The translations under genes were made by a program, and so were the position numbers. The notes beneath the pieces were generated by a model. It had not been told where the DNA came from. It worked only from the letters and a program-made list of their open reading frames with translations, and made no database searches. From a virus (Duplodnaviria; Heunggongvirae; Uroviricota; Caudoviricetes), in IMG/VR virus record IMGVR_UViG_2548876855_000021: a DNA stretch of 13,469 nt, one strand, 5' to 3'. Position 1 is the first letter of the stretch, and the number at the start of each line of letters is the position of its first letter. Positions 9,780 through 11,627 of the stretch are shown here, piece by piece.

Positions 9780-10346
9780 TTAAACAGGATAAAAACCAGA
9801 GCTTCCATTCTTATTTAAGTTATGGATTTTATTTGCATCATTAATTTTTATTTGGAACGTCGGACCTTTATTCTCAAGAATTACAATCTGGAAATTATAG
9901 TCCCTTTTGATTAATGCGTGATAAAATGAATCACTGAGACTGACGCTATTAACATCCGATAGAGAACCCCCTCTATCTTTATCAAAGTGCGTCACTAATG
10001 GACTATCAAGCACAACAAATCCAATGAATGGATTCCCTTTTCTTGATAAAAATTCCGCAAAGCAAATGGTAAATATAGCATGCATTACTGCACGGGTACC
10101 TTTACCAAACATTCCTCGGCGTTTCCCATTGATATTAAAGTCATATGTATCTTCGTCAAATCGCACTTTGTTATCTTTAGAATTTTCAAAATTTATATCA
10201 TTCAAAAAGTCTTGCATCGCTATTTCTATATCATACAAATCAGCTACTGTTAAGGAGTCAAAGTCCTCGGCGGAGTATTTAAGTTCGTCAACATCATCTT
10301 CTTTATCTTGTAATGAAGATAGAATGCTATGTTTTGTGTGATCCAT
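9780..10346 (-). CDS. C-terminal head segment of an SMC/Rad50-like ABC ATPase (signature-like and Walker B-like motifs); possibly a fragment of a split or pseudogenised gene
   Basis: 188-aa ORF with ATG start overlapping an upstream stop as TAATG. MFGKGTRAVMHAIFTICFAEF followed by GFVVLDSPLVTHFD resembles the ABC signature helix then Walker B (hhhhD), but with Ser where the catalytic Glu is expected. Same reading frame as the two upstream ATPase ORFs. Confidence 0.55.
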   Translation of the reverse strand: MDHTKHSILSSLQDKEDDVDELKYSAEDFDSLTVADLYDIEIAMQDFLNDINFENSKDNKVRFDEDTYDFNINGKRRGMFGKGTRAVMHAIFTICFAEFLSRKGNPFIGFVVLDSPLVTHFDKDRGGSLSDVNSVSLSDSFYHALIKRDYNFQIVILENKGPTFQIKINDANKIHNLNKNGSSGFYPV

Positions 10347-10427
10347 TAAAAGATTGTCTTTATATTCATAAAGTGATTCAAGAGATGAATGTATTGTTTT
10401 ATATTTTTATCTTCTAACGTCTTAAAA

Positions 10428-10937
10428 TCACTTTTTTTCTGATTGATAAATTTCATTAACATCATTTTTTCTTAACATAATTAATTCATGTTCGCGAACA
10501 TTAGATCCGATTGATTCAATTAATCCTTTCAGCTGGCTTTTGATTTTCAATTTTTCTGCATTACACGACAAAAAACAATCATCATATGATATTTCATTTT
10601 CTTTTTTTTGCGGTGTATTACAGAACTCACAATAAATATCTGCAAAATTATTTAAATAGAAATTCGCCTGTGATACAACATCTATTCTTTGTAGATCTAT
10701 AAAGTATTGGTCTTTAAGAAGACTAAATCTTTCAATGAGTAATGATAAGTATTTTTCCCTGTCACTGATTGAATATAATTCATCACTTAACTCTTTTAAT
10801 AATTGCTTCTTATCATCAAGTGCATCAACAATACCTTTCAATATATCTTTCGATGATTCAATATCTTGCTCTACTTTCTCAAGTTCTCTTGAAACAATGA
10901 CTTGATCATATTCAGGATAAATTAATTGCGCTTTCAA
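10428..10937 (-). CDS. Coiled-coil segment with a CxxC...CxxxC motif (putative zinc hook) of an SMC/Rad50-like ATPase; no canonical start codon
   Basis: 169-aa ORF rich in E/K/L/Q heptad-like sequence with CEFC-X17-CFLSC in the middle. The track start is TTG with poorly spaced Shine-Dalgarno sequence; it is in frame with the upstream ORF and separated from it by a single TAA (10968-10970). Confidence 0.45.
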   Translation of the reverse strand: MKAQLIYPEYDQVIVSRELEKVEQDIESSKDILKGIVDALDDKKQLLKELSDELYSISDREKYLSLLIERFSLLKDQYFIDLQRIDVVSQANFYLNNFADIYCEFCNTPQKKENEISYDDCFLSCNAEKLKIKSQLKGLIESIGSNVREHELIMLRKNDVNEIYQSEKK

Positions 10938-10967
10938 TTCCTCATAAATATTTGCAATTTGATTTTT

Positions 10968-11627
10968 TTAAAAATATCTTGCTTTTTTATTTGGTTTTTC
11001 TGCTAAGGAGTTAGTATCATCTCTCTGAGTTAAAAGGAATTTAAATTCAGACTTTCTTTTTGTCTCCTCGCTAGGAATATCAGAAAGAATTAACGACTTC
11101 TCAGTTAACACTCTTAATTCATCAATACAAAAAAATTCAAAAACATTATTAAGATTAAATTTATGAAGAGTATTACTTAAGTTTGTTCTTACTTTAGCCT
11201 CTTTGAAATTCAACCTACCATAAAAGTATGATGAAAAACTCTTTTTAGACGAAGCACTTTTGGAAAAAACCATCAACAGATTAGCTTCACTAACATTTTC
11301 AATGCTCGAATCATATAATCTGTAATGGGCGCTATCCTGAAGAGACCTCTCAATTGTCATTACCCTACCTTGAAAATTAAATTCCAGATAGGCTAAATCA
11401 TAACCTTGAGCATGATCGATATCTTTATTTTTTAGTTTTTCACTCCCTAATAAATATCGAATCAAATAATATATGTATGTTTTTCCAGAGTCAGAACCAC
11501 CATATAAAATAGTCAATTTAGAACCAAATTCAATTATAGCATCTAATTTATTGAATCCGGTTACCTTTATTTTTCTGAACGTAAAAAAATTGTCATTCAT
11601 AATTAAATTCCATATCATATTTGCCAA
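10968..11627 (-). CDS. N-terminal head segment of an SMC/Rad50/RecF-like ABC ATPase (Walker A)
   Basis: FRKIKVTGFNKLDAIIEFGSKLTILYGGSDSGKTYIYYLIRYLLG matches the canonical SMC-type N-terminal head with a GxxxxGKT P-loop. The track start is TTG at 11627; a more likely start is ATG at 11618 or 11600 (the latter overlaps the upstream stop as ATGAATGA). Confidence 0.6.
   Translation of the reverse strand: MANMIWNLIMNDNFFTFRKIKVTGFNKLDAIIEFGSKLTILYGGSDSGKTYIYYLIRYLLGSEKLKNKDIDHAQGYDLAYLEFNFQGRVMTIERSLQDSAHYRLYDSSIENVSEANLLMVFSKSASSKKSFSSYFYGRLNFKEAKVRTNLSNTLHKFNLNNVFEFFCIDELRVLTEKSLILSDIPSEETKRKSEFKFLLTQRDDTNSLAEKPNKKARYF

What the first reader, a model, noticed from the sequence alone, without database searches (positions are those of the whole stretch)
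9780..11627. SMC/Rad50-like ATPase encoded as three co-linear ORFs in the same reading frame
The three ORFs 10968-11627, 10428-10937 and 9780-10346 are all in one frame and in the order expected for a single SMC-type protein of about 600 aa (Walker A head, coiled coil, signature/Walker B head). The first two are separated by a single in-frame TAA (10968-10970), and the middle ORF has no ATG and no properly spaced ribosome-binding site. The last two are separated by 81 nt containing three in-frame stops. This pattern points to nonsense or frameshift decay, sequencing error in homopolymers, or recoding, rather than three independent genes.
Basis: seen in the sequence. Interest (0 to 1): 0.65.

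Follow-up and report, generated by a model that had tools for sequence, protein, structure and literature searches.

The report
Broken Lamassu defence ATPase gene (lmuB)
The three same-frame ORFs are the remains of one 606-codon anti-phage defence gene (Lamassu lmuB) carried by a P4-like satellite prophage of E. coli O157:H7, killed by one stop mutation and small insertions/deletions in runs of A; this is ordinary gene decay and is already annotated as a pseudogene in the reference genome.

Summary
In detail: 9780-11600 (- strand) reads as one about 606-codon SMC/Rad50-like ATPase cut into three co-linear pieces. It is LmuB of a Lamassu (ABC-3C) anti-phage system, LmuA-LmuC-LmuB, in the cargo site between delta and int of the P4-like prophage Sp2 of E. 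coli O157:H7.

Intact 606-aa homologues (Proteus mirabilis 87%, Pantoea alhagi 75% identity) align to the window without a gap, which fixes the lesions:
- TTA (Leu211) to TAA at 10969.
- +1 A in the run 10432-10438 (A7, intact A6).
- -1 A in the run 10404-10408 (A5, intact A6).

The stops between pieces 2 and 3 are nine codons read out of frame between the two compensating indels. The A5 deletion was present in all six E. coli copies aligned, and none of 309 records holds the repaired junction. 296 of 309 match the TAA-bearing 95-mer. The A7 run, which puts piece 3 back in frame, occurs in only 3 of 309.

Neighbouring lmuA is also frameshifted, and other strains carry further lesions, including IS1203 inside lmuB. 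RefSeq Sakai already marks ECs_0293 as a pseudogene. Verdict: ordinary pseudogene decay, with no support for recoding or a native split. Low interest.

The parts
9780..11600 (-). lmuB pseudogene: SMC/Rad50-like ABC ATPase of a Lamassu/ABC-3C system, 606 codons when repaired
   Evidence: tblastn of P0001 (606 aa) gives 87% identity with 0 gaps over 11600-9783. PADLOC LmuB PDLC03863 covers all three pieces. Sakai ECs_0293 is annotated as a pseudogene.
10968..11600 (-). Piece 1 (codons 1-210): N-terminal half of the ATPase head, Walker A GGSDSGKT at 11478-11501, ending in the TAA
   Evidence: Pfam AAA_23 at 1.9e-7, with weaker AAA_15 and SMC_N matches below their cut-offs. LmuB profile positions 3-199. 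G34, S36, D37, S38, G39 and K40 are invariant in the family alignment.
10968..10970 (-). Nonsense codon TAA replacing Leu211 (TTA to TAA, T to A at 10969)
   Evidence: TTA in Proteus, FDAARGOS_946 and O55:H7 CB9615; CTG in Pantoea. The TAA-bearing 95-mer is matched by 296 of 309 E. coli records.
10428..10967 (-). Piece 2 (codons 212-389): coiled-coil arm with CxxC zinc-hook-like motif (Cys324 and Cys327 at 10620-10631)
   Evidence: LmuB profile positions 210-386. C324 and C327 are invariant in 19 homologues. Zinc hook as a LmuB feature: bioRxiv 10.1101/2025.03.14.643221.
10432..10438 (-). A-run 1: A7 in the window (+1 relative to intact A6); variable among strains (A5, A6, A7)
   Evidence: Alignments. 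Only 3 of 309 records match the A7 71-mer exactly.
10404..10408 (-). A-run 2: A5 (-1 relative to A6 in Proteus)
   Evidence: Deleted in all six E. coli copies aligned. 0 of 309 records match a repaired 96-mer.
10409..10431 (-). Stretch read out of frame between the two indels. Frame 0 gives K*F*DVRR*. The +1 frame gives SDFKTLEDK, matching SDFKRLEGK of the intact protein.
9780..10346 (-). Piece 3 (codons 419-606): end of the arm plus the C-terminal half of the head. Holds the invariant GKG-R motif (codons 499-503) and a deviant Walker B VVLDSP (Asp532 at 10005-10007).
   Evidence: LmuB profile positions 428-608. Pfam DUF3732 at 5.3e-5, 23.2 bits, just under its 25-bit cut-off. Invariant residues. 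Its ATG is the internal Met419 of the intact proteins.
11593..12051 (-). lmuC (ABC-3C middle component 2), apparently intact, 152 codons
   Evidence: Pfam MC2 at 6e-30. PADLOC LmuC at 2.5e-36. PGAP CDS.
12051..13057 (-). lmuA effector gene, broken into ORFs 12641-13057 and 12051-12668 by a 1-nt deletion in the A run 12644-12650
   Evidence: PADLOC LmuA PDLC03852 positions 10-140 and 141-333 fall on the two ORFs. Pfam CTD6. Alignment to the intact 335-aa LmuA.

Best explanation
The region is a dead copy of lmuB, the SMC/Rad50-like ATPase sensor of a type II Lamassu (ABC-3C) anti-phage system with gene order lmuA-lmuC-lmuB. The system sits in the cargo site between delta and int of the P4-like satellite prophage Sp2/CP-933I of E. 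coli O157:H7.

In an intact system, according to published work, a LmuB dimer with LmuC holds the LmuA nuclease inactive. DNA ends from a replicating phage release LmuA, which forms a tetramer and cleaves DNA.

Here lmuB is inactivated by three lesions: a TTA to TAA nonsense mutation at codon 211, a -1 slip in an A6 run, and, in this strain only, a +1 slip in a second A run 23 nt upstream. lmuA is inactivated by its own -1 slip in an A run.

The two lmuB indels cancel, so the C-terminal piece happens to return to the original frame. The stops between pieces 2 and 3 are nine codons read out of frame. No functional full-length product is expected.

Shown here: the identity of the genes, the position of each lesion, and their distribution among the genomes examined. 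Inferred: the order of events and the loss of function.
For: Identity and context:
- The window is 100% identical to O157:H7 chromosomes. Sakai annotates the element as prophage Sp2, P4-like.
- PADLOC matches LmuA, LmuC and LmuB. Pfam matches MC2 and CTD6 of ABC-3C systems.
- A profile of the family hits solved Lamassu LmuB chains (9ny5, 9uxl), then Rad50 and SMC heads.

Intact relatives:
- 26 full-length relatives of 594-612 aa were found.
- P0001 and P0002 align to the window with 0 gaps.
- The same lmuA-lmuC-lmuB operon is intact next to int in a P4-like element of Pantoea alhagi and in two unnamed assemblies (L006, L007).

Lesions:
- Base-level alignment shows TTA to TAA, A6 to A7 and A6 to A5.
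- The +1 frame between the two indels restores SDFKTLEDK.

Decay signature:
- lmuA is frameshifted.
- Other strains carry different extra lesions: A8 to A7 at 10609, an extra T at 11136, CAA to TAA at codon 214, IS1203 inside lmuB, deletion of piece 1, and a stop in lmuC.
- Substitutions in lmuB among the six E. coli copies aligned are 5 nonsynonymous, 2 nonsense and 2 synonymous.
- No E. coli record has the repaired junction.
- RefSeq Sakai lists ECs_0293 as a pseudogene.
Against: No expression or protein data were available, so residual activity of the fragments is not excluded. lmuC remains intact in most strains. The broken operon has been kept, not deleted, across the O55:H7/O157:H7 lineage. 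The A7 run could be an assembly error in the 3 records that carry it: one of them (H6437) also has a frameshifted sid gene. If so, the true sequence would be the Sakai type, which is still a pseudogene.
Confidence: 0.93

Rival explanations
1. Programmed recoding: stop-codon read-through at TAA 10968-10970, plus ribosomal or transcriptional slippage on the A runs, yields a full-length LmuB at low level.
For: In the window, the run and the following G (10431-10438) form an in-phase A_AAA_AAG heptamer immediately before a TGA, the classic -1 slippery motif (established knowledge, e.g. dnaX). All three pieces are in one frame in this strain.
Against: A -1 slip at that heptamer gives only VILRR and then a stop. 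Rescue needs a +1 shift followed by a -1 shift 23 nt later, on top of TAA read-through, so three independent events per molecule. The heptamer exists in only 3 of 309 records. Intact homologues encode one uninterrupted ORF with A6 in both runs. lmuA is also frameshifted, so the system would lack its effector anyway. Lesions differ from strain to strain, which is the opposite of a conserved recoding signal.
Confidence: 0.02
2. Sequencing or assembly error in homopolymers: the gene is really intact and the stops are artefacts.
For: All three frameshift lesions (two in lmuB, one in lmuA) lie in A runs, where long-read assemblies err. The A7 state is found in only 3 records, on at least two different backgrounds (with and without the 10609 deletion and the IS1203 insertion). 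One of these records also has a frameshifted sid gene.
Against: The TAA is a substitution, not an indel, and 296 of 309 independent complete genomes match the 95-mer that carries it. The A5 run is present in all six E. coli copies aligned, and no record holds the repaired junction. These include the Sanger-era Sakai and EDL933 genomes (their sequencing era is my own knowledge). Only the A7 call could be an error, and correcting it leaves a pseudogene.
Confidence: 0.03
3. A natively split or functionally retained system: the fragments (N-terminal head, arm, C-terminal head), together with the intact LmuC, assemble or act separately, for example as a regulator or decoy.
For: lmuC is intact in most strains. 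The broken operon persists throughout O55:H7 and O157:H7 without being deleted. PGAP calls the pieces as separate CDSs.
Against: No homologue is split at these positions. Piece 2 has no ATG and its TTG follows GAGGAA by one base. Piece 3 has no Shine-Dalgarno sequence. Strain-specific extra lesions and IS insertions hit the pieces themselves. Substitutions are mostly nonsynonymous or nonsense.
Confidence: 0.02

Closest known systems
Lamassu type II / ABC-3C system LmuACB (e.g. Vibrio cholerae DdmABC, PDB 9NY5, 9UXL; Salmonella enterica LmuACB)
   Same: The three-gene operon is the same: LmuA (N-terminal effector domain plus ABC-3C C-terminal domain CTD6), LmuC (MC2) and LmuB. LmuB has an ABC head with the Walker A lysine at K40, the same residue number as the mutated K40 in both published systems. 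It also has a coiled-coil arm, a CxxC zinc-hook-like motif as in the Salmonella system, and a Walker B lacking the catalytic Glu.
   Different: The window copy is inactivated in both lmuB and lmuA. Sequence similarity to the solved LmuB chains is detectable only with a profile (E 4e-11 to 6e-6) and not with a single sequence. Walker B reads D-S-P here, whereas the Salmonella paper reports Glu replaced by Gln. The LmuA N-terminal domain matches no Pfam family or PDB chain by sequence.
Intact orthologous operons in Proteus mirabilis (P0001, loci L003/L004) and Pantoea alhagi (P0002, locus L005; the same protein also in the unnamed assemblies L006 and L007)
   Same: LmuB is 87% and 75% identical over 606 aa with no gaps. 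Gene order and overlapping start/stop junctions are the same. In Pantoea the operon occupies the same site in a P4-like element, between int and ogr/delta-psu-sid, next to proA.
   Different: Those copies have uninterrupted lmuA (335 codons) and lmuB (606 codons). The Proteus element is a different island, next to smpB.
Rad50 / SMC family ATPases
   Same: The N-terminal head and Walker A region match Rad50 and SMC chains (E 4.5e-7 to 1e-3). The architecture of a split head, coiled coil and zinc hook is shared.
   Different: The protein is much shorter (606 aa), and similarity outside the P-loop region is weak. It is part of a defence operon, not a repair or chromosome-maintenance complex.
Defence hotspot of P4-like satellites
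   Same: A low-GC (27-34%) cargo block lies between delta and int of a P4-like element that has sid, psu, delta, ash, primase and the C4 immunity RNA.
   Different: A 2026 survey reports that pseudogenes with similarity to defence genes are rare in P4-like satellites (under 1% of pseudogenes) and that systems are swapped before decaying (PMC13586616). Here a decayed system has stayed in place across a whole lineage.

Membership tests
Lamassu LmuB (SMC/Rad50-like ABC ATPase) | Sequence match to LmuB family profiles over the full length | tested here: met
   PADLOC PDLC03863 LmuB matches piece 1 at 1.3e-49 (positions 3-199), piece 2 at 1.1e-20 (210-386) and piece 3 at 5.1e-37 (428-608). The intact homologue P0001 scores 3.4e-117 over positions 3-608.
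Lamassu LmuB (SMC/Rad50-like ABC ATPase) | N-terminal ABC head with Walker A (GxxxxGKT) including the catalytic Lys | tested here: met
   GGSDSGKT at codons 34-41. G34, S36, D37, S38, G39 and K40 are invariant in 19 homologues. Pfam AAA_23 matches above its cut-off; AAA_15 and SMC_N match weakly, below theirs.
Lamassu LmuB (SMC/Rad50-like ABC ATPase) | Coiled-coil arm with a zinc hook (CxxC) at its apex | tested here: inconclusive
   CEFC at codons 324-327 sits midway along the protein, and both Cys are invariant. No coiled-coil or structure prediction was run, so the arm and hook geometry is inferred. Some validated LmuB proteins lack the hook (PMC12663957).
Lamassu LmuB (SMC/Rad50-like ABC ATPase) | C-terminal half of the head with a deviant Walker B lacking the catalytic Glu | tested here: met
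   VVLDSPL, with D532, S533, P534 and L535 invariant; Ser follows the Asp. Deviant Walker B is described for LmuB. Pfam DUF3732 matches piece 3 at 5.3e-5, 23.2 bits, just below its 25-bit cut-off.
Lamassu LmuB (SMC/Rad50-like ABC ATPase) | An uninterrupted, translatable ORF (a functional member) | tested here: not met
   TAA at codon 211, plus +1 and -1 indels at 10432-10438 and 10404-10408. The window copy is a pseudogene of the family, not a working member.
Lamassu type II / ABC-3C operon | Adjacent LmuA (effector with an ABC-3C C-terminal domain) and LmuC (middle component) on the same strand | tested here: met
   Pfam CTD6 at 7.7e-30 and MC2 at 6e-30. PADLOC LmuA at 3.9e-44 and 9e-41, LmuC at 2.5e-36. 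The junctions overlap, as in the intact operons. lmuA itself is frameshifted.
Lamassu type II / ABC-3C operon | Anti-phage or anti-plasmid activity | not testable with these tools
Given the lesions in both lmuA and lmuB, loss of activity is inferred.
P4-like satellite prophage | Core genes int, primase (alpha), sid, psu, delta and ash, plus the C4 immunity RNA | tested here: met
   Pfam Psu (two ORFs) and Phage_ASH. Rfam C4 at 84 bits. Sakai annotates 'prophage Sp2, P4-like phage' with a primase, capsid size determination protein, psu and int.

The most novel reading that the evidence does not exclude
The most novel reading not excluded has two parts. First, the broken Lamassu operon may be retained for a reason: for example, the intact LmuC together with the LmuB fragments could have a residual regulatory or anti-defence role. 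Second, the hypervariable A run (A5, A6 or A7 among strains) could act as a slippage-prone contingency tract. Either would make this locus an informative exception to the reported rule that P4-like satellites swap defence systems before they decay.
Probability: 0.04. Interest if true: 0.4.

Novelty: already known. Interest (0 to 1): 0.12.

Why it matters
It matters little beyond annotation. PGAP calls the three pieces of lmuB and the two pieces of lmuA as five separate proteins in the automatically annotated O157:H7 genomes inspected. They should be merged into two pseudogenes, and the strain should be scored as lacking a working Lamassu system. The locus is also a clean, datable example of stepwise decay of a defence system inside a P4-like satellite, which a recent survey reports to be rare (PMC13586616). 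It could therefore serve as a marker for O55:H7/O157:H7 sublineages.

Tried and rejected
- Single-sequence PDB searches with intact LmuB (P0001) and intact LmuA found nothing. Only a 19-sequence profile reached the solved LmuB, Rad50 and SMC chains.
- NCBIfam gave no hit for LmuA, LmuB, LmuC or the ORF at 2067-3023.
- A 69-nt query around the TAA returned nothing, probably because of the low-complexity filter. A 95-nt query worked.
- A first literature query failed because one term was too short.
- I first suspected that LmuA was also truncated in the Proteus and Pantoea genomes, because gene callers listed 145- and 201-aa products. The DNA alignment showed an uninterrupted 335-codon frame with a GTG start, so I dropped this.
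- I considered -1 frameshifting at the in-phase A_AAA_AAG heptamer and rejected it, because the -1 frame ends after five codons.
- I searched for an intact E. coli copy in three ways: distant-mode blastn (all 310 hits at least 99% identical), the plasmid collection (one 99.8% copy), and a repaired 96-mer (0 exact matches).
- I could not confirm from the papers read that PDB 9hqu is a Lamassu LmuB.
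Full report
**1. What is in the sequence**

Translating 9777-11627 on the - strand in one frame gives three open stretches. They are separated by a single TAA at 10968-10970 and by a short block that reads K*F*DVRR*. The ORF listing reports the same three ORFs: 10968-11627, 10428-10937 and 9780-10346.

The true start of the first piece is the ATG at 11600. It overlaps the stop of the upstream gene as ATGAATGA and is the start PGAP uses.

The 81-nt spacer contains two stops. The third stop is the TGA that ends ORF2.

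**2. Where the window comes from**

Window 9600-13100 is 100% identical to E. coli O157:H7 chromosomes. 310 records in 309 of 5,426 complete genomes hold it, all at 99% identity or more.

In the Sakai reference the region lies in 'prophage Sp2, P4-like phage', between the delta-like activator gene and intS.

The window also carries the other parts of a P4-like satellite:
- sid, psu, delta, ash and primase genes.
- The C4 immunity RNA at 6293-6380.

G+C falls from about 50% to 27-34% across 9500-13000, as expected for acquired cargo. The window ends in the terminal sequence of IS1203, which cuts intS at about 13416, as in strain ERL04-3476.

**3. What the gene is**

PADLOC places the three pieces on one LmuB profile (PDLC03863, 610 positions):

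| Piece | Profile positions | E-value |
|---|---|---|
| 1 | 3-199 | 1.3e-49 |
| 2 | 210-386 | 1.1e-20 |
| 3 | 428-608 | 5.1e-37 |

The upstream genes are:
- LmuC, matching Pfam 'ABC-3C middle component 2' at 6e-30.
- LmuA, matching Pfam 'ABC-3C C-terminal domain 6' at 7.7e-30 and the PADLOC LmuA profile.

This is therefore a type II Lamassu (ABC-3C) operon, lmuA-lmuC-lmuB.

A 19-sequence profile of the LmuB family matches 9hqu (a 'DUF3732 domain-containing protein' whose identity I could not confirm), then Rad50 and SMC heads, and the solved Lamassu LmuB chains 9uxl and 9ny5. The two Lamassu PDB codes are confirmed.

Family-invariant residues include:
- Walker A GSDSGK40.
- Cys324 and Cys327, a CxxC motif like a zinc hook, midway along the arm.
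- A GKG-R motif at codons 499-503.
- A Walker B of the form LDSPL, lacking the catalytic glutamate.

A deviant Walker B and a zinc hook are described for LmuB in the literature.

**4. Intact relatives and the exact lesions**

A protein search found 26 full-length relatives of 594-612 aa. The closest are from Proteus mirabilis (P0001, 606 aa, 87% identity) and Pantoea alhagi (P0002, 606 aa, 75% identity). Both align to the window across all three pieces with no gaps.

In Pantoea alhagi and in two unnamed assemblies (L006, L007) the intact operon sits in the same place in a P4-like element, between int and ogr/delta-psu-sid, next to proA.

Base-level alignment shows three lesions in the window:
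- **Nonsense.** Codon 211 is TTA (Leu) in Proteus and in two E. coli strains, CTG in Pantoea, and TAA in the window. This is a T to A change at 10969.
- **A-run 1 (10432-10438).** A7 in the window, A6 in Proteus and Sakai.
- **A-run 2 (10404-10408).** A5 in all six E. coli copies aligned, A6 in Proteus.

Between the two runs the +1 frame reads SDFKTLEDK, matching SDFKRLEGK of the intact protein. The 'three stops' are therefore nine codons read out of frame between a +1 and a -1 indel. Because the two indels cancel, piece 3 returns to the original frame.

**5. Distribution among genomes**

| Test | Result |
|---|---|
| Match to the TAA-bearing 95-mer | 296 of 309 records |
| Exact match to the A7 71-mer | 3 of 309 records |
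| Exact match to a repaired 96-mer (A6 in both runs) | 0 of 309 records |

O55:H7 CB9615 and FDAARGOS_946 have TTA at codon 211 instead of TAA. No complete E. coli genome in the collection has an intact junction.

The three records with A7 are ERL04-3476, ERL05-1306 and H6437. H6437 differs from the window at other lesions: it has the further-truncated middle ORF and no IS1203 in int. A7 is therefore either recurrent or an assembly error.

**6. Signs of ongoing decay**

- lmuA is split into ORFs 12641-13057 and 12051-12668 by a 1-nt deletion in the A run 12644-12650. In Proteus and Pantoea it is one 335-codon gene.
- Strains 272 and JEONG-1266 have an A8 to A7 deletion at 10609.
- O55:H7 CB9615 has an extra T at 11136 and CAA to TAA at codon 214.
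- Strain M1300706002 has IS1203 inside lmuB.
- FDAARGOS_946 has a stop in lmuC.
- One assembly (P0027) has lost piece 1, fusing lmuC to piece 2.
- Substitutions in lmuB among the six E. coli copies aligned are 5 nonsynonymous, 2 nonsense and 2 synonymous.
- Pieces 2 and 3 have no credible start signals of their own.

**7. Rival explanations**

*Recoding.* The window's A7G forms an in-phase A_AAA_AAG heptamer before a TGA. A -1 slip there yields only VILRR and then a stop. Rescue would need TAA read-through, then a +1 shift, then a -1 shift. The heptamer is present in only 3 of 309 records.

*Sequencing error.* This is excluded for the TAA, whose 95-mer is matched by 296 independent assemblies, and for A-run 2, since no record holds the repaired junction. 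It remains possible only for the A7 call.

*A native split.* No homologue is split at these positions.

**8. Mechanism of the intact system (from the literature) and status here**

Published structures show a LmuB dimer with LmuC holding a LmuA monomer inactive. DNA ends release LmuA, which forms a tetramer with an active nuclease site.

In O157:H7 both the sensor gene (lmuB) and the effector gene (lmuA) are broken, so the system is inferred to be non-functional.

The LmuA N-terminal domain carries a GDxGxD...QxK pattern with the Lys at position 68. By eye this resembles Mrr/Cap4-type PD-(D/E)xK nucleases. It matched no Pfam family or PDB chain, so this is inference only.

**9. Novelty and score**

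RefSeq Sakai already annotates ECs_0293 as an 'AAA family ATPase' pseudogene, and PGAP names the neighbouring genes as ABC-3C components. The finding is a correct reading of an ordinary, already annotated pseudogene.

The one mildly notable point concerns a 2026 survey, which reports that defence pseudogenes are rare in P4-like satellites and that systems are swapped before they decay (PMC13586616). This locus is a lineage-wide counter-example.

Interest is low.

Noticed in passing
window 12051-13057 (-), A run 12644-12650: The neighbouring effector gene lmuA is also a pseudogene. A 1-nt deletion in an A run splits it into two overlapping ORFs (12641-13057 and 12051-12668). Intact relatives have a single 335-codon gene.
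   Followed up: yes
window 13416-13469: The terminal sequence of IS1203 (IS3 family, TGAACCGCCCCGG...) begins here and cuts the P4-type integrase gene, leaving only its C-terminal part (13061-13415). Strain ERL04-3476 has the same arrangement; Sakai has an intact intS.
   Followed up: partly
window 6293-6380 (-) and 6449-6526 (-): Rfam finds the C4 antisense RNA (84 bits) and the isrK Hfq-binding RNA (71.9 bits). This is the immunity RNA region of the P4-like satellite, overlapping the ash-like ORF 6044-6601.
   Followed up: no
window 2067-3023 (+): A 318-aa ORF in a 28-34% GC block beyond the primase gene (Sakai ECs_0304) has no credible hit in Pfam (only chance-level matches far below cut-off) and none in PADLOC or NCBIfam. 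[quoted passage not shown]
   Followed up: partly
window 10431-10438 (-): The A7 run plus the following G forms an in-phase A_AAA_AAG slippery heptamer directly before a TGA. A -1 slip gives only five more codons (VILRR), so it cannot rescue the gene. The motif is present in 3 of 309 genomes.
   Followed up: yes
L009 (O55:H7 CB9615), L010/L011 (strains 272, JEONG-1266), L012 (M1300706002), L008 (FDAARGOS_946): Each sublineage carries its own extra lesions in the same operon: an extra T at window-equivalent 11136 and CAA to TAA at codon 214; A8 to A7 at 10609; IS1203 inside lmuB; and a stop in lmuC. These could serve as lineage markers.
   Followed up: partly
protein P0027 (Logan assembly, 344 aa): This is a fusion of LmuC (to ...SIIKN) with LmuB from codon 213 onward. 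A deletion has removed piece 1 in some isolate. Downstream it has the Sakai-type frame (A6/A5).
   Followed up: no
NZ_CP044147.1 (46.9-kb record labelled plasmid, E. coli): A 99.8% copy of the lmuB region sits on a non-mobilizable 'plasmid' record. One genome in the collection holds two copies. This is possibly a misassembled chromosomal fragment.
   Followed up: no
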